From a virus: a stretch of 64,000 nt of DNA. Positions 7,067 through 60,898 of this stretch are shown in pieces. The DNA is taken from IMG/VR virus record IMGVR_UViG_3300032236_001530, positions 64,001 to 128,000 of that record; one strand, given 5' to 3'. The notes under the pieces were generated by a model. It saw nothing but the letters and a program-made list of their open reading frames with translations, did not search any database and was not told the origin of the DNA. A program made the position numbers and the translations under genes. The stretch's first letter is position 1, and each line of letters opens with the position of its first letter.

Positions 7067-7497
7067 TACTTTTATTTATACTTCTATCTAGTAATTTATT
7101 TGCGCAAACTCAAATAGATGACGTTGGAGATGGTTGGAAATTAAAAGTAGACTCAGCTATCAATTTGATAAAAAAGACCAGCCCTGAGCATTATAAACAG
7201 GTTTCTGAGTATTGTAAACATGTTAGTTACTGGATGGGTGGATTTTCAACAACTCAAGATTCTGATATCGTTTTGATATCAACAAAAGATATGAAAATAG
7301 GCTCAGTTAATAACATAGCTTGTATATTAGTTCATGAGTCTCATCACTTGTATATTAAGAGTAAACATATAATACTAACCCCTAAAAAAGAAGAATTGGA
7401 ATGTTATATGTATGAATATGAGTTCATAAAGAAAGTAAACAACCCTGAAAACTGGCTGATTACACACATTATAAAAAATATTATTAATAATAAATAA
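7045..7497 (+). CDS. Secreted zincin-like metallopeptidase
   Basis: Signal peptide, LVHESHH (HExxH) and downstream EE. Confidence 0.55.
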   Translation: MYIKNALILLFILLSSNLFAQTQIDDVGDGWKLKVDSAINLIKKTSPEHYKQVSEYCKHVSYWMGGFSTTQDSDIVLISTKDMKIGSVNNIACILVHESHHLYIKSKHIILTPKKEELECYMYEYEFIKKVNNPENWLITHIIKNIINNK

Positions 7498-7526
7498 AAA
7501 ACCCACCAATTGGTGGGTTTCTTTTT
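7496..7526. terminator. Bidirectional intrinsic terminator
   Basis: A-tract, acccaccaattggtgggt palindrome, T-tract, between convergent genes. Confidence 0.85.
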
Positions 7527-7893
7527 ACTTAATACTCTCAAGTATATTCTTAATCTCTTCCAAGTGATACTTGTTACTTTTAACACTTTTCATTTTCTTT
7601 TCTAAGAAAAGGTTATTACTGATAACACACTTAGCATTGTTGTTATAATATTTGATATAAGAATCAATGTCAATTTTGCTAAGTTTGTAGTTAGAACTTC
7701 CTATCTTTTCAAGTTGGAAAAAGTCCTCGTTTATTTTAATTACTTTGAAATAAGTGAATTCATTGTAGTCATATTCGTGATAACTACCTTCAGCATTCCA
7801 CTTAAAAGTTGCCTTTGGTTTCACAAAAGTGTGTTGAGATGTTTTAGTTAAATAATTAACGATTTCTTGTTTGATTTGTTCTGCGTTTTTCAT
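7525..7893 (-). CDS. Hypothetical protein; last gene of the TAG-gated operon
   Basis: 122-aa ORF starting 4 nt after the HD gene stop. Confidence 0.6.
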   Translation of the reverse strand: MKNAEQIKQEIVNYLTKTSQHTFVKPKATFKWNAEGSYHEYDYNEFTYFKVIKINEDFFQLEKIGSSNYKLSKIDIDSYIKYYNNNAKCVISNNLFLEKKMKSVKSNKYHLEEIKNILESIK

Positions 7894-7897
7894 AATA

Positions 7898-8485
7898 TTA
7901 ATTTTTATTTTTTAATTGATTTATAATTTGTTTACCTCTTTGGTTAATACATTTCCATTTAATCTTGAAAGAGGTTGAATCAAGACCACCGAACATTTGA
8001 GCATTTGAATGTAACTCGGCTAACCCCGTTAACAATAAGGTTAAGGCATAAGGATTCTGACAGAATTGATTAACACCATCAGATTTCAATAAATGAATAT
8101 CCATGTCGTGTAGGATCAATTCAGCAGCAACTGAATTATTAAATACTTGGTTAAATACTTTATAAGATACTTCCGCATGATTTGGGAAATGTCTTTTACC
8201 ATCTGCGTCAATTTCTAAGCAGAATGGTTTACCACAATCGTGATAAATTGTGTATAGTTCTAATGTTTCATCATCTGGTAAAGACGATAAAAGAAGGTCT
8301 TTATTTTCTAAGACCCAATCTGGTAAATTCCATTCATATTGTAATGGTGTACCATTTCTTAAATGATTAATAAGGTCAAATAAGTAGTTCTTAACTGAAG
8401 TACCGTGTTCTAAAACAGATTGACCTTTGGTCTGTTCGCATTCAGACATTCTCTGAATTAATTCTTGTTTTGTAATCTACAACAT
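7898..8485 (-). CDS. HD-domain phosphohydrolase with an in-frame TAG at codon 3 (ML*ITKQELIQRMSECEQ...)
   Basis: H...HDCGK...HF.NH...H motifs. ATG at 8485-8483 lies 4 nt after the upstream stop and is in frame with the track ORF at 8449; TAG at 8479-8477. Confidence 0.75.
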
Positions 8486-8489
8486 AGTT

Positions 8490-9182
8490 TTATTTTTTAA
8501 TTTTTGTTTTTAATTCTTTACATAAATGTGGATGTACCCACTTTTCATTTTGAATATTTACTTCTTCGGCTTTGCCTTCTTCAAGTAAATTATTAAATAA
8601 TTGATATCTATCATGATGTCTTATTCCAGTAGTTTGATCTTTTATTGACTTAATATTACCATCTTCCATCTGAATAAACAAAGTTCCTTTTTTGTACTTA
8701 AAAGTTGATTTTGTTCTTTCATAATAAATTTCACAATCATCTTTTACTTTCCAAGCTTTGATTTCATAAACTTTTGGATCTTTTGGTTTACCAGTTAGCA
8801 ACTGATCAATTTTATACTCTCTATATTGAGGTTCTGTCATCTTGTATAAAGGTGCTATTCTAAATTCATAGCCATCTCTATGACTTGGGTAGATTTTAGT
8901 AGCTGCATCTAAAGCAGCACTTCTACTAACATAGATTCTATGATTCCAATAAGTAGACCAAGAATACCACTCACCTCGTGTATCTTTATATCTAAATTCT
9001 AATGTCCAACCATATACTTGAACATCATTGGCTACAGATTGTACTTTGAGTATTTGACTATCAGCAATAGCGTATTCTTTACCATTTATAGTGTATCTCA
9101 TTATATCACTATTATAATGGTCTTTAGGTTTTTCAACTTTTGTTGTTTGTTTTTTCTTAAAAATATTAAATAACTTTTTCAT
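8490..9182 (-). CDS. Hypothetical protein (internal REYKIDQLL motif)
   Basis: 230-aa ORF overlapping the end of the Pth2 gene by 17 nt. Confidence 0.65.
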   Translation of the reverse strand: MKKLFNIFKKKQTTKVEKPKDHYNSDIMRYTINGKEYAIADSQILKVQSVANDVQVYGWTLEFRYKDTRGEWYSWSTYWNHRIYVSRSAALDAATKIYPSHRDGYEFRIAPLYKMTEPQYREYKIDQLLTGKPKDPKVYEIKAWKVKDDCEIYYERTKSTFKYKKGTLFIQMEDGNIKSIKDQTTGIRHHDRYQLFNNLLEEGKAEEVNIQNEKWVHPHLCKELKTKIKK

Positions 9183-9528
9183 TTTGATTTGTTTTATTTT
9201 TTAGAGCTAAAGGTAAATGTGATAAGCTCTTACGAATTTGTGGAGTACCATAAAGACACACTGAAGTAAACTCATCTACATCAGGTTCAAAGAACATAAC
9301 AGCGTCTGTTAGTTCTTTATACTTATGATAAAGTTTTTGTAATTCAAATTCATTTTTAACTGATAAACAGATAATAGAATTTGATTCATCTTTCCACTTG
9401 GAAAAAGTTTTTGAGAATTCAAAAGCAAAGTCAGCAATTGAATGGGTTGATTGTACTACTTGGTAACCATCTGAGATATCACTTCTTGTGATAACAATTA
9501 ATTTTGGTTCTGTAATCTAATTTTTCAT
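9166..9528 (-). CDS. Pth2-like peptidyl-tRNA hydrolase with an in-frame TAG at codon 4; absent from the ORF track
   Basis: Manual translation: MKN*ITEPKLIVITRSDISDGYQVVQSTHSIADFAFEFSKTFSKWKDESNSIICLSVKNEFELQKLYHKYKELTDAVMFFEPDVDEFTSVCLYGTPQIRKSLSHLPLALKNKTNQNEKVI. It carries PTH2-family hallmarks (KL.+..R.D, Q..H, W, +.L.V..E.EL, F.EPD...T.+, L..LPL). Confidence 0.8.
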
Positions 9529-9552
9529 AATATATTTTTTTGTTTTTTGTTT

Positions 9553-9637
9553 AAAATAAAAATCCTCCATAATAAGTTCTAACCGAGTGCTCGCTCTCAT
9601 CAGCATTAGCTGGTTGGTTAGATTCCTATTAAGGAGG
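9553..9637 (-). promoter_or_regulatory. Attenuator-like RNA structure overlapping the 3' end of the leader peptide
   Basis: CCTCC-T-TAATAGG-AA-TCTAACC pairs with GGTTAGA-A-CTTATTA-T-GGAGG (19 bp), encloses two small hairpins, and is followed by ATTTTTATTTT. Confidence 0.7.
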
Positions 9638-9673
9638 TCTTTCTAAAAATTTATATGTGCTAATCTACATCAT
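9629..9673 (-). CDS. Putative leader peptide MM*ISTYKFLERPP (TAG at codon 3, ends TAA TAG)
   Basis: ATG ATG TAG ATT AGC ACA TAT AAA TTT TTA GAA AGA CCT CCT TAA; first ATG downstream of the promoter. Confidence 0.65.
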
Positions 9674-9693
9674 TGTCTTGAATTATTATACTA

Positions 9694-9725
9694 CAAATAT
9701 ATATCAAAAGTTTTGTTCTTCCAAA
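9694..9725 (-). promoter_or_regulatory. Bacteroidota housekeeping-sigma promoter (-33/-7)
   Basis: TTTG-N20-TATATTTG, matching the TTTG-N19-21-TAnnTTTG consensus. Confidence 0.75.
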
Positions 9726-9731
9726 TATTTT

Positions 9732-9950
9732 TTAAACTAAATCTATAATTAAACTTCCAGGATTAAAATATTTCTCATTTGATTTGAATCCATATAGTTT
9801 ACAAGCATCGGTGACTATATTTTTCATTCTATCACTCATACCCGTTACAACTTCAACTTGTTGGATATTTTTTTGCATCGATTCCCAAAAGAAAACATCC
9901 AGCTTTCTTTCGACATCTTCGTGTTTTATTCCGTGTAAATCAAGTTTCAT
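9732..9950 (-). CDS. Stand-alone Smr-domain protein
   Basis: LDLHG start and V+TG motif; 72 aa. Confidence 0.75.
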   Translation of the reverse strand: MKLDLHGIKHEDVERKLDVFFWESMQKNIQQVEVVTGMSDRMKNIVTDACKLYGFKSNEKYFNPGSLIIDLV

Positions 9951-9951
9951 T

Positions 9952-10488
9952 TTATTTAACTTTAATTAAAGACTTTAGCTTAGTTGGTTTGAAAAATTTA
10001 ACAACTGAAAATCCCCAGAAACAAGGCGAAAAATGTGATGGTGCATTAACATCTGAATTAAAACTACTATAATAGTAATTACCAAAAAACACATTCATGT
10101 GTATCTTTTCAGTAACTTCATATTCAACACCAGAAGTCCATTCCAACATTAAACTAGGTATTGGACCAAATACATAACCAACACCTGGTGTTATTGTATT
10201 TGTAAATTTACCAACTTGAAATACATTTAAGTTAGGTCTAACCTCTAAATAAATATCATCAAGTGATTTATTAGCACAATTTGTTTTACCCAATGCAAGA
10301 CCAAGCGTAAAAACATCTTGGAATTGTCTACCAACTTCAATAGTTGGACTTAATTTTGTTCTAAATGAACCTAATTCATTTGTCAAACAAGGCGAAAATG
10401 AAACATATGTTTGAGCAGCAGCTTCGAGATTCTGAGCCTTAGATGTGTAGCTTACTAAAAGTAATAAAACAAGTATTAATTTTTTCAT
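9952..10488 (-). CDS. Putative outer-membrane beta-barrel protein
   Basis: Signal peptide and amphipathic strands (TPGVGYVF, WTSGVEY). Confidence 0.5.
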   Translation of the reverse strand: MKKLILVLLLLVSYTSKAQNLEAAAQTYVSFSPCLTNELGSFRTKLSPTIEVGRQFQDVFTLGLALGKTNCANKSLDDIYLEVRPNLNVFQVGKFTNTITPGVGYVFGPIPSLMLEWTSGVEYEVTEKIHMNVFFGNYYYSSFNSDVNAPSHFSPCFWGFSVVKFFKPTKLKSLIKVK

Positions 10489-10503
10489 GTTTATGATTAT
10501 TTT

Positions 10504-11505
10504 TTATAAATATTTAATTGAATTACTATAGCCGGTTAGTCCAACTTTGTTATACCCAGCCGAACCAACTTTATGAGCCATAAATCCACCAGAATCTAAT
10601 TCCAAATCTTTAACTATTTCATCAACAAAGAACTTAGGATCTTTACCTTCTTCATAGTATTTTGATATCTCATCTTCGTATTCATCAATTAAATGATTAA
10701 GTACAACAGGTCTTATATTATATTGTTCAAGTGAAGATATTATCTGATTTGTGTATTCTTGTATATCATTATATGATTCGTTTGTTGGGTAGACATTTCT
10801 ATTAAGAATAATATGAATATTTATATTTATATTTCTTGGTTCATTCCAAGGTTGACCTGACCCAGCTACTAAAAAAGTTATTGTTAAAAAACCGGATGTG
10901 TATTCTAAGTGATTAATTAATTTATGACAAGCATCTTCAGCGACTTCAACTATTTCTGACTCATATGCTTCTAAATCACCACCTGGTCTAAGAGTTGATA
11001 TGTGTTTTTGATAAACTTCATTCTTGTCAAAATTATATCTTAAATTAAGATTTCCTCTCCAAGTTTTTTCAACTTGTTTGAATAATGATATTCTCATTTC
11101 TTGAGATTTGAAATTACCAACATTATCATCATCAATATCATATTCTTCATCTGAACTATCAACTTTATATTCATTGATTTCAAATTCCATATCATACAAT
11201 TCTTGTAAGCACTCTTCTACTAAATTAGCTTCTTCATCATCTAATTTGGATTCTTCTACTTTAGTAATACCTTTAGCTGGTGCTAAAAATCTCATATCAG
11301 AAACTTCGTTTGGTTTACCTTTCTTAATTTTTTTACCCTTTTTATCAAATAAATAAAATGTTATATCACCTGATCCAGATGTTCCGGCTTGACCGGCAAA
11401 TGCACCTGGTTGAGCATTTGATACGGCTCCCATACCAGCAGTTGTTGCGGTAGCGGTAGCAGTACCATCTTCTAAAAATGCTTTATATCTTTTAAGGTGT
11501 TTCAT
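10504..11505 (-). CDS. Hypothetical protein with an N-terminal capsid-targeting-like motif
   Basis: MKHLKRYKAFLE; TAATATATA box upstream. Confidence 0.6.
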   Translation of the reverse strand: MKHLKRYKAFLEDGTATATATTAGMGAVSNAQPGAFAGQAGTSGSGDITFYLFDKKGKKIKKGKPNEVSDMRFLAPAKGITKVEESKLDDEEANLVEECLQELYDMEFEINEYKVDSSDEEYDIDDDNVGNFKSQEMRISLFKQVEKTWRGNLNLRYNFDKNEVYQKHISTLRPGGDLEAYESEIVEVAEDACHKLINHLEYTSGFLTITFLVAGSGQPWNEPRNININIHIILNRNVYPTNESYNDIQEYTNQIISSLEQYNIRPVVLNHLIDEYEDEISKYYEEGKDPKFFVDEIVKDLELDSGGFMAHKVGSAGYNKVGLTGYSNSIKYL

Positions 11506-11516
11506 TAGATTATATA

Positions 11517-11765
11517 TTAATATCCATCAACTAAAATATCTTCAGATTCTGTTGATTTACATTTAGGACAAGTTGGTTCACCATCTTCTTTCATGAAGTA
11601 ATATTCAACACCACAATTTAAACATCTATGTGGATAAGCTACCTTTTGAGGAATTGGTTCTGTTTTTGGATCTCTTGGTATTTCAGGATTGTTAAAAGCC
11701 CATGAAGAGCCTGCCCAAGAAGTTTGGAAATCATCACCCTCGTTGAATCTTTTTAGATATTTCAT
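11517..11765 (-). CDS. Small zinc-ribbon protein with an MKYLKRFNE leader
   Basis: CLNC...CPKC. Confidence 0.6.
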   Translation of the reverse strand: MKYLKRFNEGDDFQTSWAGSSWAFNNPEIPRDPKTEPIPQKVAYPHRCLNCGVEYYFMKEDGEPTCPKCKSTESEDILVDGY

Positions 11766-11778
11766 AGGGTATATATTA

Positions 11779-12047
11779 AAACAAGAAAGACTGGTTTAGA
11801 ATCGTGTGAATCGAATCTTAGCCAGTCTTTTTTCTTGTGAAGTTCAGAAGTTCACATCTTCGTTCTTTCGTGTCATACACCTTTTAATTCGACCGTATCG
11901 ATATGACTGATACTAAGTCTACTGCGGGACCAACAGATTTATCATCCCCTAACCTCGGCAAAGTTTAGTCCGTTATTTGTCTGGATTGCCGTCCGTGACT
12001 TATTACGGAATATTTGTTGTTTTTGGTTTCGATATCATTACAATATC
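11779..12047 (-). ncRNA. Candidate structured non-coding RNA, family unrecognised
   Basis: About 270-nt tract with no long ORF, GC-richer than its surroundings, between a -33/-7 promoter and a long terminator stem; several internal helices. Confidence 0.5.
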
Positions 12048-12053
12048 TTATTA

Positions 12054-12084
12054 CAAAGATACAACAAATATCTAAAACAACAAA
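12054..12084 (-). promoter_or_regulatory. Bacteroidota-type promoter
   Basis: TTTG-N19-TATCTTTG. Confidence 0.7.
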
Positions 12085-12336
12085 TTATTTTATAGATTTT
12101 TTAATTATTTCTGATTTCGCTTTAATATCATCAATTGAAACACCGATTAGTAAAAGTATTACAACTATAATAAATGATATACCAACTAAGCTTATTGCTA
12201 TTGCGAATGGTATCCAAAGAGGTGAAGTTACCCACAACCAAGACCAACTAATATTATTTGTTAGTTTAAGAACTAAGAAAACTATGAAAAGAACTGCTGA
12301 TAAACTCAGACCTGTTCCTGAATTTTTTGATGCCAT
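12085..12336 (-). CDS. Small two-TM membrane protein
   Basis: LF+VFLVLKL...I.WSW.WV..PLWIP pattern, common in phages. Confidence 0.65.
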   Translation of the reverse strand: MASKNSGTGLSLSAVLFIVFLVLKLTNNISWSWLWVTSPLWIPFAIAISLVGISFIIVVILLLIGVSIDDIKAKSEIIKKSIK

Positions 12337-12351
12337 ATTATTATAAATATT

Positions 12352-12972
12352 TTAGTTTATACCAATTTTATTAAGTAAAGTTTCACGCCTTTGGGTTTTT
12401 GTTTGATATTTAGGACATCTATAAAGTTCTCTAAACCCTGATATTCTTAACTCAGTACATATACCATAATTTCTTGGCACTTGCCTATCTCTTTTTTCTA
12501 TTAATCTACCAAGTGCAAAGTAATAATAAATACCATTTTTTTCTTCACAATAAATTAGTGTTTCGAATGCGCTTTTCCAAGCATCTTCTAATTCCCAACC
12601 CATATCATCGTCATTCATACCAATAAGTGTTGCTATAACAACAAATATCAAGCATACACCAAATCCTATCCATAGTAAAACATTAGCATCAGAATAAGAA
12701 CTAATATAAATTTTACCATCTTTTACTGGCATTTCTTTAGAATCCCAAATATTCTCGTACTTTATTTGGGCTTCCGACAAGGTTCTACAAATATAGATGT
12801 AATTATTATCAATTTTTACTTGACCGACAACATTATAACTATCAACCGAGTTGGGTACGGTACCCGCTTTAAGAAAGAATACTATAGTGGCTATGAGGAA
12901 TAGTATCTTTACAACATTAGTTTTAATAACTTCCAATAAGAAAACAAGAGCAAACTTTAAATACTTTATCAT
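12352..12972 (-). CDS. Membrane hypothetical protein
   Basis: Hydrophobic segments; TATATTTG immediately upstream; C-terminal RETLLNKI. Confidence 0.6.
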   Translation of the reverse strand: MIKYLKFALVFLLEVIKTNVVKILFLIATIVFFLKAGTVPNSVDSYNVVGQVKIDNNYIYICRTLSEAQIKYENIWDSKEMPVKDGKIYISSYSDANVLLWIGFGVCLIFVVIATLIGMNDDDMGWELEDAWKSAFETLIYCEEKNGIYYYFALGRLIEKRDRQVPRNYGICTELRISGFRELYRCPKYQTKTQRRETLLNKIGIN

Positions 12973-13002
12973 TTTACAAATATAGAAAAAAATATATAAA
13001 CT

Positions 13003-13185
13003 ATGGAAAATATTTTAACATTTGAATCATTTATTAATGAATCTTATAATAAACCAAGAGCTGGTGGTAAAAAACGTTGGTCTGTAAAATATAAAAAGTC
13101 AATTGACTGCTCACACCCCGCGGGTTTTAGCCAAAAGCAATATTGTAAGAGAAAACGTAAAGGTGGTGCTTATAAATCTAATTAA
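13003..13185 (+). CDS. Small basic protein with a TFESFINE leader
   Basis: KRWSVKYKKSIDC..P.GFSQKQYC; AATATATA upstream. Confidence 0.6.
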   Translation: MENILTFESFINESYNKPRAGGKKRWSVKYKKSIDCSHPAGFSQKQYCKRKRKGGAYKSN

Positions 13186-13619
13186 GACTTCAATGGAATT
13201 TTAGCAATTCTACCTGAGTGTCTACCACCTTCAAATCCAGTATTTAAGAACTCTTCAACACATTTGAAAGCTTCTTCATCTGAAATATATCTACCTGGCA
13301 TTGATAAGATATTAGCATTATTATGTAATCGGGCCATATTAGCGATTTCTGAACTCCAACAAAGAGCAGCACGAACACCAGACCATTTATTAGCAGTCAT
13401 AGTAATTCCGTTTCCAGAACCACACATTAAGATACCAAATTCACAATTATTATTTTGAACATCTTCAGCAACAGAATGTGCAAAGTCAGGATAATCACAT
13501 CTTTCTTCAGAGTAACATCCATAATCTTTTAATTCTATTCCTTGTTTTTTGGAAAGATATTGTTTAACTTTTTCTTTAAGTTCAAATGCTGCGTGATCAC
13601 AACCAATAGATATTTTCAT
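13182..13619 (-). CDS. rpiB: Ribose-5-phosphate isomerase B
   Basis: GCDHA, DYPD, CGSGNG, ANK..GVRAA, HNNAN, FEGGRH..R. Confidence 0.95.
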   Translation of the reverse strand: MKISIGCDHAAFELKEKVKQYLSKKQGIELKDYGCYSEERCDYPDFAHSVAEDVQNNNCEFGILMCGSGNGITMTANKWSGVRAALCWSSEIANMARLHNNANILSMPGRYISDEEAFKCVEEFLNTGFEGGRHSGRIAKIPLKS

Positions 13620-13645
13620 AAAATTAATATTTTATGAGTTATATA

Positions 13646-14350
13646 CTATTTTGAATATTTGGTTGTATTAAAGAACTCTTTGTAGGTAACAATTTTATTA
13701 CCACCTTGGATAGCATCAACTTCTTCTTTTTCATCATCATCCATTATCATCATTTTAAGATCGGTACCTTTTTCAATTGGTGCTTCATATTCAAAGCTAT
13801 CAAGGTCTTTATCCATAAATGTATAATCTTTTGGTGATGTTTCAAAACCAAAGCTGTTAAAGAAGTTAACTATATTTTGTAATGATTCGTCAGAGAAACC
13901 AAAATAAGTTTCACCATCATATAAAGAACCTTTACCTGTATAGTGTATAACTTCTACTTTATTAGGATAATCAATAGTGAAGTGGTAAACCATAGCATCA
14001 CCATATGTTAATTCAACATTTAATCTAAGTTTATCAGCTGGATTTGCGTGAGCACCATCATTATCTTTAACAATAGTAACGTCAAATTCTAATTGATCTG
14101 GTTCACCGTCAGCTAAAACGTCACCACCTTCTGAATCTACGGTGTTATGTGCATAAGTAATTTGAATACAATTCATCAAATTAGCAACATCAATTGAGTG
14201 ATTAGTACCTGGGCTTAAACCTGGTTTTCTTTCAACTTCAAATTCACCATTCTCGGTGATAATTGTCAATGTTTCTGGTAAAAACTTTGACCAATCTACT
14301 TCAAATATACTGGTAGATTCGCTTTCGTTAAACTTTTTTAAATATCTCAT
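13646..14350 (-). CDS. Hypothetical protein with an MRYLKKFNE leader
   Basis: 234-aa ORF; ends in TAG used as a normal stop. Confidence 0.6.
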   Translation of the reverse strand: MRYLKKFNESESTSIFEVDWSKFLPETLTIITENGEFEVERKPGLSPGTNHSIDVANLMNCIQITYAHNTVDSEGGDVLADGEPDQLEFDVTIVKDNDGAHANPADKLRLNVELTYGDAMVYHFTIDYPNKVEVIHYTGKGSLYDGETYFGFSDESLQNIVNFFNSFGFETSPKDYTFMDKDLDSFEYEAPIEKGTDLKMMIMDDDEKEEVDAIQGGNKIVTYKEFFNTTKYSK

Positions 14351-14382
14351 AAACTATATATTTATTTTAAAATTTACTTTTT

Positions 14383-14979
14383 TTATTTATCATTACTAAG
14401 TCCTATCATAAGTGACTTGATTTTAAAATCACCAGGTAAGCTAAGTAATTCATCTATAGTGAATTGTTGTCTCATAAATGTTGAACCATCTACCGTATCT
14501 TTAATTACATATAAAAAGTCTAAATTCCAAAAATCTAAAGCAAATGAAATGAATCTATTAATCTCATCTTCTATTTGAGACCAAGTAAATTCACCAGCAC
14601 TTTGATATCTATAATCTAACCAAGATGTTGATGAACCATCATCTGAAACAGGTCTTTGTGGTAACCAAACTCTAACATGAAAATTATCTCTTGCTGGTCT
14701 ACCAGCAACTTGAGTACTTCCTACTTCAACTTTGAAACCATCATCTTTTAAGTGTGCTAAATAATCTTCCACATTATTTTTTAAATCATCATAAGAAGCA
14801 GATTCTTTTACAATCCTAAATTTAAGAAGTGGTTTATCATTTATAGTAATATCACCTTTATCATTCTTACCAATTTTCTTAACAACAACTTTTTTATTCT
14901 TAAAACGACCACCCAATACCGTATCACCAACTTTAATAGGTATTTTAATCATTTCATTAAATGTTTTTAAATATATCAT
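14383..14979 (-). CDS. Hypothetical protein with an MIYLKTFNE leader
   Basis: N-terminal small beta module (IKVGDTVLGGRFKNKK). Confidence 0.6.
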   Translation of the reverse strand: MIYLKTFNEMIKIPIKVGDTVLGGRFKNKKVVVKKIGKNDKGDITINDKPLLKFRIVKESASYDDLKNNVEDYLAHLKDDGFKVEVGSTQVAGRPARDNFHVRVWLPQRPVSDDGSSTSWLDYRYQSAGEFTWSQIEDEINRFISFALDFWNLDFLYVIKDTVDGSTFMRQQFTIDELLSLPGDFKIKSLMIGLSNDK

Positions 14980-16067
14980 ACGCTAGAAGTTGGTGATGTT
15001 GATGTAGGTACATAACTAAAAGAACCTAATCTGTTTAGCCAACCTTCACCATGTCTGTCAAATGTTTGTGAATCTCTATATCTCTCTTCTCTATACTTTT
15101 TAATAGAGTTGAACAATTTTTCTTGGTCAACACCATTTGCTTTATCTAAAACATCTTTAGAAAAAATGTTATCTGAATCACTTATTTCAACACCATTTTC
15201 TTCTAAAGCTGATCTTAAAACACTTCTCATTCCATCGATACCTTGGTTTACACAACCATCATAGATAACATTGGCAACACTTTGATCTGAAATCTCACTT
15301 AAATTCTGAGCATCCCAGTAGTTCATTTTGTATATTTTTAGAGCTGTTTGATATGAAAGATTCATCATATCTTTTTTAGTAAGAAGTCGAGTTATTCCTT
15401 TTTCATTAAAATACTTTGCTAAAATACGAGCCGATATACCATGATTTGTACCAATAAATCTTTTTTTACCGCCCGGTATATCAATATAATTACCTCTATC
15501 ACCTTTATCATCTGAATATCCAGCCTCTGCTAACTTAACAAGTTTTTGAGCTTCCTTAAATGAAGATTTTTTATGTTCGTGTTTTATATTATCTTTATTT
15601 AATTGAACTATCTCTTCAGTTTGGTTTTGACTTAAACCACCTTTAAATATTTGATTATTTGCACCAGCTGATGGTGTGATTAGATAACTAAGACTTACAA
15701 ATGTTAAGAAGACTCCTGTAATACCAACTATTAATTTTTTTCTTAAAGATGATGGTAGATTTTTAATCTTATTCATTATCTTAATAAAGTATTCTTTAAT
15801 CTTTTCTTTAGGTAGATTTTGTAAAAACTTTTCTAATTTACTTTTAATAGTATTAGAGTCGCTATTTACAATCCATTCAAATGTAACTGGCTTTTCGTCA
15901 CTATATTTTGGTGTTTCTTTTTTAGGTTGATCGTTATAATCCCAAGTCATCGTATTTGGACCTGTCCATTTACCTTCTACTTCCTCAACAATTCTAAAAA
16001 TATCATCTATTATAGAATTAAATTGTTTTTCTAAAAGAAAGTCATTATATTTGCTAATCTTATTCAT
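14976..16067 (-). CDS. Glycoside hydrolase family 108 lysozyme with N-terminal extension and TM helix
   Basis: EAGYSDDKGDRG, TNHGI, IYK.NYW, YD..VNQG, C-terminal F..GWLNRL. Confidence 0.75.
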   Translation of the reverse strand: MNKISKYNDFLLEKQFNSIIDDIFRIVEEVEGKWTGPNTMTWDYNDQPKKETPKYSDEKPVTFEWIVNSDSNTIKSKLEKFLQNLPKEKIKEYFIKIMNKIKNLPSSLRKKLIVGITGVFLTFVSLSYLITPSAGANNQIFKGGLSQNQTEEIVQLNKDNIKHEHKKSSFKEAQKLVKLAEAGYSDDKGDRGNYIDIPGGKKRFIGTNHGISARILAKYFNEKGITRLLTKKDMMNLSYQTALKIYKMNYWDAQNLSEISDQSVANVIYDGCVNQGIDGMRSVLRSALEENGVEISDSDNIFSKDVLDKANGVDQEKLFNSIKKYREERYRDSQTFDRHGEGWLNRLGSFSYVPTSTSPTSSV

Positions 16068-60394: not shown

Positions 60395-60898
60395 TTATAA
60401 ATCTTTATTTTTTTCACTTTCTAATTCACCTACAACATAATCTAAAAATGAATCTAATTCATATTCCAGGCCATTACAAAACTCAAACACATCATATGAT
60501 TCTTCATTTGGTTTTTTAGACACTGAATAAAAATCTGGTGATATTTGATTACTATTAAAAACAACTATTCTACCCTCTAATCTACCTTCAATTCTTTTAC
60601 CACTTGGGAATACTAAGTCTGGTACATACAAAGTGCCTATATAATGCACCTCATCACCATAATCTTCTGTTTCGGTGTGTTCAAATTTGAAATATCCATT
60701 ATCATCTTCAAATACTCTCTCACTTTCATCAACAATCATCTTATTATGAACTTCTTCTTGATTTCCTGACTTATGCGCATTTAGAAAATCTCTTTCATCA
60801 TCTCGCAATGAAGACATTCCATATTTAGATATTTTATCCAATATGTCATCTACTCTTTGTTGAGCTGTATATCCTTCATATCTCATTAGATGTTTCAT
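60395..60898 (-). CDS. Hypothetical protein with an MKHLMRYE leader
   Basis: VD.ILDKISKYG..SL...ER.FL helical motif. Confidence 0.6.
   Translation of the reverse strand: MKHLMRYEGYTAQQRVDDILDKISKYGMSSLRDDERDFLNAHKSGNQEEVHNKMIVDESERVFEDDNGYFKFEHTETEDYGDEVHYIGTLYVPDLVFPSGKRIEGRLEGRIVVFNSNQISPDFYSVSKKPNEESYDVFEFCNGLEYELDSFLDYVVGELESEKNKDL

What the first reader, a model, noticed from the sequence alone, without database searches (positions are those of the whole stretch)
9553..9673. Leader-peptide attenuator coupling passage through the amber codon to transcription
Seen: the Pro-Pro codons and double stop of MM*ISTYKFLERPP** (CCT CCT TAA TAG) are the 5' strand of a 19-bp stem that closes a two-hairpin junction and is followed by a U-rich tract. 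A ribosome stopping at codon 3 leaves the stem free to form, whereas one that passes TAG covers the 5' strand. Established: this is classical attenuation geometry, and Pro-stop/RxPP-type endings slow ribosomes (TnaC ends RP-stop; RAPP arrest peptides). Inference: the same signal acts twice, first for antitermination and then for translation of Pth2 and HD.
Basis: partly seen in the sequence, partly recalled or inferred. Interest (0 to 1): 0.85.

Follow-up and report, generated by a model that had tools for sequence, protein, structure and literature searches.

The report
Amber-sensing leader attenuator in huge phage
A giant phage places a tiny test gene with an early UAG stop in front of a terminator hairpin, so its tRNA-hydrolase operon is probably transcribed only when a phage tRNA reads through UAG; this would be a natural version of a switch that so far only engineers have built.

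Summary
A leader ATG ATG TAG ... CCT CCT TAA TAG (9673..9626) ends on the 5' base of a 74-nt hairpin (9637..9564). A U tract follows (9563..9553), then a Pth2-like gene that starts ATG AAA AAT TAG.

I found 32 distinct leaders of this design in related huge-phage contigs.
- In 31, the UAG-to-hairpin distance is 30, 33 or 36 nt, and the frame ends Pro-Pro-stop 6 nt inside the hairpin.
- The hairpin base covaries, while its interior differs between lineages. The window's two-hairpin junction is local.
- Every hairpin is followed by a U tract.
- The only promoter-like motif lies upstream of the leader, never between hairpin and Pth2.

All three large relatives carry a tRNA with a CUA anticodon. 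In many other relatives that tRNA gene sits where the leader sits here.

Best reading, about 0.6: a ribosome-occlusion attenuator of the pyrBI kind, whose input is amber suppression. The same signal then gates translation of Pth2 and of the HD gene. Nothing has been tested at the bench, and this 155-kb fragment carries no CUA tRNA.

The RAPP and TnaC analogies fail, because only Pro-Pro-stop is conserved.

This scan has already reported the same design on other DNA (e1-5692343, e1-5680254 and others). I found no paper describing a natural case.

The parts
9694..9725 (-). Promoter-like region. TTTG (9725..9722), 20 nt, then TATATTTG (9701..9694), which is the Bacteroidota consensus. It overlaps the phage's own common upstream motif ATATATA (9704..9698).
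   Evidence: One search matches TTTG-N20-TAnnTTTG here. ATATATA lies within 60 nt upstream of 56 of 181 ORFs of the contig, against 3.9 expected. All 32 related leaders have ATATATA upstream and 25 also have TAnnTTTG.
9665..9673 (-). Leader mini-frame ATG ATG TAG, with the amber stop as codon 3.
   Evidence: In 32 distinct relatives the pre-amber frame reads MM, less often MN, MI or MKMM. The 3' context TAG ATT A is the same as at the Pth2 and HD starts.
9626..9664 (-). Post-amber leader frame ISTYKFLERPP, followed by TAA TAG. The Pro-Pro-stop codons form the 5' base of the hairpin.
   Evidence: In 31 of 32 relatives the frame holds at 30, 33 or 36 nt from TAG to CCTCC. The stop is TAA, or TGA in L151. 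The peptide sequence is otherwise variable.
9564..9637 (-). 74-nt hairpin, the inferred terminator stem. Base pairs CCUCC with GGAGG; the lower stem has 19 pairs.
   Evidence: Every relative folds a hairpin of 55-92 nt at -23 to -38 kcal/mol. The base helix covaries and the interior is not conserved.
9553..9563 (-). U-rich tract A UUUUU A UUUU directly after the hairpin.
   Evidence: A U-rich tail follows the hairpin in all 32 relatives, while the next 25-35 nt are A-rich.
9529..9552 (-). A-rich unpaired spacer between the U tract and the Pth2 start. It holds no full promoter motif.
   Evidence: None of 32 leader-type loci has ATATATA within 45 nt of the Pth2 ATG, against 46 of 68 loci of the other types. 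The spacer is unpaired in the MFE folds.
9166..9528 (-). Pth2-like gene that starts ATG AAA AAT TAG ATT. The amber is codon 4 (9519..9517).
   Evidence: Pfam PTH2 scores E = 1.8e-4, just under the cut-off. All 84 distinct relatives' starts carry the early TAG.
8490..9182 (-). 230-aa ORF of unknown function in the same operon.
   Evidence: No Pfam or PHROG match.
7898..8485 (-). HD-domain gene that starts ATG TTG TAG ATT. The amber is codon 3 (8479..8477).
   Evidence: Pfam HD scores E = 2.4e-4 and phrog_14850 scores 6e-64. The same amber start occurs in L001, L033, L034 and L036.
7525..7893 (-). 122-aa ORF, the last gene of the operon.
   Evidence: No family match.
7496..7523 (.). Ordinary two-way intrinsic terminator that closes the operon.
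   Evidence: 12-pair stem with 5 G-C pairs and a T run on both strands.

Best explanation
This is a ribosome-occlusion transcription attenuator whose input is amber suppression.

Proposed mechanism:
- Transcription starts at the promoter-like region near 9700 and first makes the leader.
- A ribosome starts at AUG AUG and meets UAG as codon 3.
- If release factor wins, the ribosome leaves 30 nt before the hairpin. The hairpin plus U tract then forms and RNA polymerase terminates near 9555, before Pth2.
- If a phage tRNA with anticodon CUA decodes the UAG, the ribosome reads eleven more codons. It sits at Pro-Pro-UAA with its A site 6 nt inside the 5' strand.
- Termination after Pro-Pro is slow, so the ribosome covers about 18 nt of the lower stem. 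The stem next to the U tract cannot form, and polymerase runs on into Pth2, the 230-aa ORF, HD and the 122-aa ORF.
- Pth2 and HD each need the UAG to be passed again at codon 4 or 3. Output therefore rises steeply with suppressor activity.

Shown here: the anatomy, its conservation, the covariation, the promoter placement and the CUA tRNAs in relatives.

Inferred: termination at the hairpin, co-transcriptional translation of the leader, decoding of the UAG, and the stall at Pro-Pro-stop.
For: 1. Anatomy.

2. Frame conservation: there are 32 distinct leaders. In 31 the TAG-to-CCTCC distance is 30, 33 or 36 nt, and the frame ends Pro-Pro-stop. The stop begins 6 nt inside the hairpin in all 31. 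One lineage has TGA instead of TAA.

3. Peptide: the sequence between I-x-T-Y and PP varies freely. This fits a leader better than a functional small protein.

4. Hairpin:
- The base helix is 94.6% paired, and 5 of 10 pairs show changes on both sides.
- One such pair is the synonymous third base of the second Pro codon (AU 11, UA 11).
- 0 of 500 shuffles reach the observed covariation score.
- The interior is replaced between lineages, so it is unlikely to be an aptamer.

5. Terminator features: a U-rich tail follows every hairpin. The operon ends with an ordinary hairpin-plus-T-run terminator sequence at 7496..7523.

6. Promoter placement: all 32 leaders have ATATATA upstream. None of the 32 has it within 45 nt of the Pth2 ATG, against 46 of 68 loci without a leader.

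7. Suppressor tRNA:
- Unusually shaped CUA tRNAs lie in LR745206 at 507340 and in LR756502 at 609682.
- A canonical CUA tRNA lies in the 385-kb relative at 370132.
- In many relatives a CUA tRNA sits directly upstream of Pth2, where the leader sits here.

8. Read-through rather than restart: the codon after the Pth2 amber is ATT in 68 of 84 distinct starts. In 11 it is GTA, GTT, AAC or ACA, which cannot start translation. The residue is Ile or Val in 95%, and the base after TAG is always a purine.

9. Principle from the literature:
- An intrinsic terminator a few bp after a gene's end is almost fully repressed by the ribosome (PMC4824070).
- The pyrL terminator is blocked by a closely following ribosome (PMC5021804).
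- Poly-Pro C-termini terminate worst, and an engineered leader with an inserted UAG makes transcription depend on suppression (PMC6412442).
Against: - There is no experiment and no transcript data.
- The window's own 155-kb contig holds no CUA tRNA. It is a fragment, so this is absence of evidence only.
- The hairpins are long (55-92 nt), A-U rich and interrupted, unlike compact textbook terminators.
- The decision point is only about 120 nt after the leader ATG. In E. coli, terminators in the first 100 bp of a coding region can function efficiently (PMC4824070), consistent with the first ribosome lagging behind polymerase. The suppressor must also beat release factor in that time.
- The polymerase that uses the ATATATA motif is unknown, and so is its response to hairpin terminators.
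- Transcription-translation coupling in Bacteroidota has not been shown.
- One lineage (L044/L045) has lost the in-frame Pro-Pro-stop. Its post-amber frame still runs 70 nt into the hairpin.
Confidence: 0.6

Rival explanations
1. The leader is a small amber-gated peptide gene with its own ordinary terminator. The 14-residue peptide is the product, and the hairpin simply ends its transcript. Pth2 is expressed by constitutive leak-through, with no regulatory coupling between leader translation and termination.
For: The frame is conserved. Terminators often overlap stop codons in compact genomes. The I-x-T-Y codons are kept at nucleotide level in 28 of 30 leaders.
Against: The peptide is poorly conserved apart from I-x-T-Y and PP. 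No promoter motif lies between hairpin and Pth2 in any of 32 loci, so Pth2 depends on passage through this hairpin in any case. A ribosome terminating 6 nt inside a terminator stem represses it in E. coli (PMC4824070), so coupling would arise even if it were not selected. Relatives without the leader carry a CUA tRNA gene at that spot, not a peptide gene.
Confidence: 0.15
2. It is a stall sensor rather than a suppressor sensor. The key input is how long the ribosome stays at Pro-Pro-stop, which depends on EF-P, release-factor or peptidyl-tRNA-hydrolase activity. The operon would then be autoregulated by the state of termination and rescue, and UAG passage would be only a low constant leak.
For: Pro-Pro-stop is the most conserved leader feature. 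The operon encodes a Pth2-like enzyme, and a Smr-domain gene lies just upstream. Poly-Pro ends terminate poorly (PMC6412442), and EF-P affects coupling at the pyrL terminator (PMC5021804).
Against: The early UAG is just as conserved: 32 of 32 leaders and 84 of 84 Pth2 starts. It is always UAG in a genome where TAA ends 127 of 158 ORFs. All three large relatives carry CUA tRNAs. Free Pth enzymes act on released peptidyl-tRNA, not on ribosome-bound chains (established knowledge).
Confidence: 0.1
3. The UAG is never read through. AUG-AUG-UAG is a start-stop mini-frame, and the genes restart at the AUU that follows. The hairpin plus U tract is then a fixed partial terminator, an insulator or an RNA-stability element.
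For: ATT follows TAG in 81% of Pth2 starts and in all leaders. AUU is a known weak start codon, as in infC (established knowledge). No CUA tRNA lies on this contig.
Against: In 11 of 84 Pth2 starts the amber is followed by GTA, GTT, AAC or ACA, which cannot start translation. The residue is kept as Ile or Val, which only matters if an elongator tRNA reads it. Nothing in the restart model explains the linkage of the CUA tRNA to this operon in over 30 loci. It also does not explain why the stop is always UAG.
Confidence: 0.08
4. It is a translational switch. The hairpin hides a ribosome-loading site for Pth2, and leader translation opens it.
For: The 3' strand carries AAGGAGG, a perfect Shine-Dalgarno sequence, paired to ACCUCCUUA. 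Earlier scan notes describe this logic in other phages (e1-5403426).
Against: GGAGG lies 35 nt from the Pth2 AUG, and the spacer is unpaired. In 9 of 30 leaders the 3' strand reads GGGGG, so pairing is the constraint rather than the Shine-Dalgarno sequence. Bacteroidota rarely use Shine-Dalgarno sequences (established knowledge). A U tract is not needed for a translational hairpin, yet it is always present.
Confidence: 0.05

Closest known systems
pyrBI (pyrL) attenuator of Escherichia coli
   Same: A leader frame runs into the 5' strand of an intrinsic terminator hairpin. A closely following ribosome physically stops the hairpin from forming. No alternative antiterminator fold is needed (PMC5021804).
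   Different: In pyrL the input is UTP-dependent polymerase pausing, which sets the ribosome-polymerase distance. Here the input would be whether a UAG at codon 3 is decoded. This leader also ends in Pro-Pro-stop at the stem base, and the regulated genes carry the same UAG gate.
trp/his/leu-type leader-peptide attenuators
   Same: The order is promoter, short leader ORF with regulatory codons, terminator, then structural genes. Charged-tRNA supply is read by a ribosome.
   Different: Those use competing 1:2, 2:3 and 3:4 hairpins, and stalling at sense codons gives antitermination. Here I found no alternative fold, the regulatory codon is a stop codon, and successful decoding gives antitermination.
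Engineered leader-peptide switch with an inserted UAG (unnatural-amino-acid transcriptional switch; PMC6412442, section 6 and Figure 8)
   Same: Transcription of the target gene requires translation of a leader beyond an in-frame UAG by a CUA tRNA. The review also describes combining this kind of control with UAG codons in the target gene to cut leakage.
   Different: That switch is man-made, built on the tna leader, and works by masking a Rho site. This one is natural, uses a hairpin plus U tract, and occurs in phages.
Stop-codon recoding and the 'code change module' of recoded gut phages (Borges et al., bioRxiv 10.1101/2021.08.26.457843)
   Same: A phage-encoded suppressor tRNA is proposed to gate expression of genes that contain in-frame stops.
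   Different: Those phages recode TAG or TGA in many late genes, and control is purely translational. Here the genome uses the standard code: TAG ends 13 of 158 ORFs, and only three start-proximal ambers occur in 155 kb. The ambers sit in one operon, and one of them appears to control transcription.
prfB (RF2) autoregulatory in-frame UGA
   Same: An early in-frame stop codon acts as a sensor of the balance between termination and an alternative decoding event.
   Different: prfB uses a +1 frameshift and senses its own product. Here the frame is unchanged, and the sensed factor is a tRNA encoded elsewhere.
RAPP-type and TnaC arrest peptides
   Same: A short leader ends in prolines that slow the ribosome.
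   Different: [quoted passage not shown] TnaC needs free tryptophan and specific upstream residues. Here only Pro-Pro-stop is conserved, and the preceding residues vary (R, V, K, D, N).

Membership tests
Ribosome-mediated (leader-peptide) transcription attenuator, occlusion type (pyrBI-like) | A promoter upstream of the leader, and none between the terminator and the first structural gene | tested here: met
   Tested at motif level only. ATATATA and/or TAnnTTTG lies upstream of all 32 leaders. None of 32 has ATATATA within 45 nt of the Pth2 ATG, against 46 of 68 loci without a leader.
Ribosome-mediated (leader-peptide) transcription attenuator, occlusion type (pyrBI-like) | A short translated leader ORF kept in frame across relatives | tested here: met
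   31 of 32 are in frame across length classes of 30, 33 and 36 nt. The stop is kept as TAA or TGA. Translation itself was not measured.
Ribosome-mediated (leader-peptide) transcription attenuator, occlusion type (pyrBI-like) | The leader ORF overlaps the 5' strand of the terminator hairpin | tested here: met
   The stop codon starts 6 nt inside the hairpin in 31 of 32. In the exception the frame runs 70 nt into the hairpin.
Ribosome-mediated (leader-peptide) transcription attenuator, occlusion type (pyrBI-like) | An intrinsic terminator: a stable stem with a G-C-rich base directly followed by a U tract | tested here: met
   Tested by sequence only. The base pairs CCUCC with GGRGG, hairpins fold at -23 to -38 kcal/mol, and a U-rich tail follows in all 32. 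The base covaries.
Ribosome-mediated (leader-peptide) transcription attenuator, occlusion type (pyrBI-like) | Termination at the hairpin that is relieved by leader translation | not testable with these tools
   Needs Term-seq, in vitro transcription or reporters.
trp-type attenuator | A mutually exclusive antiterminator hairpin | tested here: not met
   No conserved alternative pairing appears in the MFE folds or in the RNAalifold consensus.
RAPP-type arrest peptide | An Arg-Ala-Pro-Pro (or close RxPP) motif that stalls elongation | tested here: not met
   The window leader ends E-R-P-P-stop. Other lineages end VVPP, VKPP, TKPP, VRPP, VDPP or VNPP. The motif definition comes from PMC10951233.
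Stop-codon-recoded phage (TAG read as sense genome-wide) | In-frame TAG in many genes, and TAG not used as a stop | tested here: not met
   Table 11 ORFs tile the window. TAG ends 13 of 158 ORFs. Only three start-proximal ambers occur in 155 kb. Further pattern hits in three relatives are chance.
Known structured RNA families (Rfam 15), including hammerhead and tRNA | A match to a curated covariance model | tested here: not met
   No hit better than E = 5 on the element. ARAGORN finds no tRNA in the window. My own model of the unusually shaped CUA tRNA does not hit the window.

The most novel reading that the evidence does not exclude
The attenuator may be one layer of a self-contained 'amber circuit' in standard-code huge phages. 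A dedicated tRNA(CUA) would have as its only conserved targets three UAG codons in one operon: the leader, Pth2 and HD. This tRNA often has a non-canonical shape: an 8-bp acceptor stem, a 4-bp T stem and a 9-nt connector, which tRNA finders miss. The phage would then own a natural, near-orthogonal translation-based switch or timer that acts on both transcription and translation, and it would use it to release tRNA-directed hydrolases only at a set suppressor level.
Probability: 0.35. Interest if true: 0.9.

Novelty: new variant of a known kind. Interest (0 to 1): 0.74.

Why it matters
Leader-peptide attenuators are known to read the supply of charged sense-codon tRNAs, nucleotides or small molecules. 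I know of no natural attenuator that reads nonsense suppression, although engineers have built that device.

If this reading is true, it gives several things:
- A concrete target and logic for the 'orphan' suppressor tRNAs of phages that use the standard code.
- A possible early step on the road to full stop-codon recoding.
- A compact natural part for synthetic biology, combining transcription and translation gates on one input.

It is directly testable with a reporter, a CUA tRNA and four point mutants.

Tried and rejected
- Rfam on the locus and on three relatives found no family for the element.
- Hammerhead idea: the CUGAUGAG motif lies in the window-specific 13-nt insert, is absent from relatives, and gives no Rfam hit.
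- tRNA-like reading of the hairpin: ARAGORN finds none, and my model R1 does not hit it.
- Shine-Dalgarno sequestration: GGAGG lies 35 nt from the AUG, and 9 of 30 leaders read GGGGG.
- A small AUU frame starting after GGAGG: its frame relative to the Pth2 AUG is not kept among the first five relatives, judged by reading.
- Restart at AUU after a start-stop mini-frame: 11 of 84 starts have codons there that cannot start translation, and the residue is conserved as Ile or Val.
- Lambda bar-like toxic minigenes: the last sense codon before UAG is not fixed (AAC, AAT, AAA, TTG, ACT, AAG and others).
- Genome-wide TAG recoding: rejected.
- More amber-gated starts in three large relatives: nine further ATGNNNTAGATTA hits are chance matches inside other frames.
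- Other copies of the element in the contig: none.
- A phage amber suppressor among the ordinary tRNA arrays of LR745206 and LR756502: ARAGORN finds none. The CUA tRNAs there appeared only with the custom model.

Full report
**What is there**

All genes from 7525 to 16067 lie on the minus strand. Read on that strand, the stretch has this order:

- A promoter-like region. TTTG (9725..9722), 20 nt, then TATATTTG (9701..9694), overlapping ATATATA (9704..9698).
- The leader ATG ATG TAG ATT AGC ACA TAT AAA TTT TTA GAA AGA CCT CCT TAA TAG (9673..9626).
- A 74-nt hairpin whose base pairs CCUCC (9637..9633) with GGAGG (9568..9564).
- The tract A UUUUU A UUUU (9563..9553).
- A 24-nt A-rich spacer.
- ATG AAA AAT TAG ATT, which opens a Pth2-like frame (9528..9166; Pfam PTH2 E = 1.8e-4).

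The lower stem has 5+7+7 pairs and closes a junction with two small hairpins. The fold is better than shuffles: z = -4.2 for 171 nt and z = -7.3 for the hairpin alone.

**The same start signal occurs three times**

A scan for ATG, one to five codons, then TAG ATT before an open frame finds only three sites of this kind in the 155-kb contig. All three are in this operon: the leader (TAG 9667..9665), Pth2 (9519..9517) and the HD-domain gene (ATG TTG TAG ATT, TAG 8479..8477).

The operon then runs through a 230-aa ORF, HD and a 122-aa ORF. It ends at an ordinary two-way terminator at 7496..7523.

The genome otherwise uses the standard code. Table 11 ORFs tile the window, and TAG ends 13 of 158 long ORFs.

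**Relatives**

- The locus matches two 634-kb and 642-kb uncultured phages, LR745206 and LR756502.
- Scans with the Pth2-like protein brought in 49 viral and 80 metagenome loci.
- Relatives down to about 39% identity keep the early TAG. Among 84 distinct start contexts, all have it.
- The mini-frame before the TAG has 2 to 8 codons counting the ATG.
- The codon after TAG is ATT in 68, ATA or ATC in 5, GTA or GTT in 7, and AAC or ACA in 4.
- The base after TAG is always a purine.
- So the residue after the amber is Ile or Val in 95%, and 11 of the 84 starts could not restart there. This favours read-through over restart at AUU.
- HD has the same amber start in L001, L033, L034 and L036.

**What lies upstream of Pth2 in relatives**

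There are two main arrangements.

In 32 distinct loci there is a leader like the window's.

In many others the same place holds a tRNA gene with anticodon CUA. ARAGORN calls several of these. The rest have an unusual but well-supported cloverleaf: an 8-bp acceptor stem, a 9-nt connector, a 5-bp D-like stem, a U-CUA-A anticodon loop and a 4-bp T stem. In this fold 19 of 22 pairs show compensatory changes.

A covariance model of this form gave these results:

- It finds one copy each in LR745206 (507340-507420, 63.5 bits) and LR756502 (609682-609761, 59.4 bits).
- Both copies have a CUA loop and a promoter directly upstream, and both lie far from their leader-type Pth2 loci.
- ARAGORN misses both.
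- The closest large relative (385 kb, Pth2 86% identical, leader type) has a canonical tRNA(CUA) at 370132-370203.
- The window's own contig has none, but it is a fragment.

So all three large leader-type relatives encode an amber suppressor elsewhere. Phages without the leader often place the suppressor gene exactly where the leader would be.

**The leader is kept as a reading frame**

- Among the 32 distinct leaders, the pre-amber part is MM, rarely MN, MI or MKMM.
- The post-amber frame has 11, 12 or 13 codons.
- In 31 it ends Pro-Pro-stop. The stop is TAA, and once TGA.
- The TAG-to-CCTCC distance is 30, 33 or 36 nt, and the stop begins 6 nt inside the hairpin.
- Residues between I-x-T-Y and PP change freely, for example KFLER, KILGR, YNFVVV and NNLKVK. 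The peptide itself is therefore not strongly constrained.
- The exception (L044/L045) has lost the frame, and its post-amber ORF runs 70 nt into the hairpin.
- In every case a ribosome that passes the UAG enters the 5' strand. A ribosome released at the UAG stays 26-36 nt short of it.

**The hairpin behaves like a terminator stem, not an aptamer**

- Every leader folds a long hairpin of 55-92 nt at -23 to -38 kcal/mol, from (C)CUCC to GGRGG. A U-rich tail follows at once.
- The interior differs in length, sequence and shape between lineages. The window's junction comes from a 13-nt insert that L092 lacks.
- The ten base pairs are 94.6% paired, against 30-60% in slid controls.
- Five pairs changed on both sides, and 0 of 500 shuffles reach the observed score.
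- One covarying pair is the third base of the second Pro codon (CCU or CCA) with its partner (A or U). The change is synonymous and compensated, as expected when coding and pairing act together.
- The 3' strand is GGGGG in 9 of 30, so pairing is what is kept, not a Shine-Dalgarno sequence.

**Promoter placement**

- The contig has a strong upstream motif, (T)TAATATATA. It lies before 56 of 181 ORFs against 3.9 expected, spaced 4-7 or 18-24 nt from the ATG.
- All 32 leaders have it upstream, and 25 also have the Bacteroidota TAnnTTTG box.
- None of the 32 has it within 45 nt of the Pth2 ATG, whereas 46 of 68 loci without a leader do.
- In leader-type phages, transcription of Pth2 therefore has to pass the hairpin and U tract. 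This is the layout of an attenuator.

**Mechanism**

The best reading is occlusion of a terminator by a leader ribosome, as in pyrBI, with amber suppression as the input.

Published work supports the parts:

- An intrinsic terminator a few base pairs after a gene's end is almost fully repressed by the ribosome (PMC4824070).
- The pyrL terminator is blocked by a closely following ribosome (PMC5021804).
- Poly-Pro C-termini terminate worst, the base after UAG affects RF1, and multiple UAGs sharpen a switch (PMC6412442).
- The same review describes an engineered leader with an inserted UAG that makes transcription depend on a CUA tRNA.

The natural element would add the Pro-Pro-stop 'parking place' and a second and third gate at the Pth2 and HD starts.

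One speculation: the unusually long hairpins move the decision point to 100-140 nt after the leader ATG. This may give the first ribosome time to arrive.

**Limits**

- Nothing here shows RNA ends, termination, decoding of UAG or stalling.
- The polymerase that uses the ATATATA motif is unknown.
- Coupling in Bacteroidota is unknown.
- This contig lacks the tRNA.
- The main rivals are an amber-gated micro-gene with an ordinary terminator, a sensor of termination or rescue capacity at Pro-Pro-stop, a start-stop frame with restart at AUU, and a translational hairpin. Each is scored in its own section, with the evidence against it.

**Comparison and novelty**

The element works like pyrBI. It meets the sequence-level criteria of an occlusion-type attenuator.

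It is not a trp-type attenuator, because it has no antiterminator fold. It is not a RAPP or TnaC arrest peptide, because the motif is not met (PMC10951233). It is not part of a recoded genome.

The recoding survey of Borges et al. describes suppressor-gated translation and a 'code change module' but no leader attenuator. Two literature searches found only the engineered analogue.

Earlier notes of this scan describe the same design on other DNA and the amber-gated Pth2 of this window. I reached the same reading before opening them.

Noticed in passing
L172:1501-1581 (LR745206 507340-507420); L173 (LR756502 609682-609761); L111:2289-2370 and 20 others (alignment A2): A family of tRNA(CUA) genes with a non-canonical cloverleaf: an 8-bp acceptor stem, a 9-nt connector containing UUAA, a 5-bp D-like stem and a 4-bp T stem. 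19 of 22 pairs show compensatory changes. ARAGORN misses them, and the Rfam tRNA model missed the one in L036.
   Followed up: partly
whole contig G000; e.g. window 9698-9704 (-): A phage-wide upstream motif, (T)TAATATATA, lies before 56 of 181 ORFs (3.9 expected). Its spacing to the ATG is bimodal: 4-7 nt in 31 genes, which suggests nearly leaderless mRNAs, or 18-24 nt in 15 genes. It is probably the promoter of a phage-directed polymerase or sigma factor.
   Followed up: partly
window 7898-8476 (-) and 9166-9528 (-): PHROG 14850 (270 positions) matches the HD protein at positions 84-269 (6e-64). It also matches the Pth2-like protein at positions 3-74 (1.6e-3). A fused Pth2-HD protein therefore probably exists in other phages, which ties the two amber-gated genes together.
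   Followed up: no
window 9653-9664 (-): Leader codons 4-7, ATT nnn ACA TAT (I-x-T-Y), are kept at nucleotide level in 28 of 30 aligned leaders, while the rest of the peptide drifts. The attenuator model does not explain this. It may be a read-through context or a binding site.
   Followed up: no
window 9732-9950 (-): A 72-aa Smr-domain gene (Pfam Smr E = 2.5e-6) lies directly upstream of the leader. It lies there too in the closest relatives (L092-L110). Smr nucleases act on collided ribosomes, so this is another translation-rescue theme next to Pth2.
   Followed up: no
L150, L159 and L058, upstream of Pth2: A second tRNA-like gene with a long internal insert (gtcaggtgg ... caggttcgaatcctgtcctgac) sits just upstream of Pth2. 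In L150 it lies between the unusually shaped tRNA(CUA) and Pth2.
   Followed up: no
L111 and L118, between tRNA(CUA) and Pth2: A small hydrophobic ORF (MASGIVVGIFIGWMIWGRKK) is inserted between the suppressor tRNA gene and the amber-gated Pth2.
   Followed up: no
L015:1108-1181 (LR745206): A tRNA with an 8-nt anticodon loop, read by ARAGORN as the four-base anticodon 'gtag', sits in an Asp/Pro/Gln tRNA array.
   Followed up: no
G000 60813-60887 (-), 3 kb before the window; L042:302-375: tRNA-Glu-like genes with a six-base anticodon loop, which ARAGORN reports as '(tt)'. Earlier scan notes already describe them.
   Followed up: no
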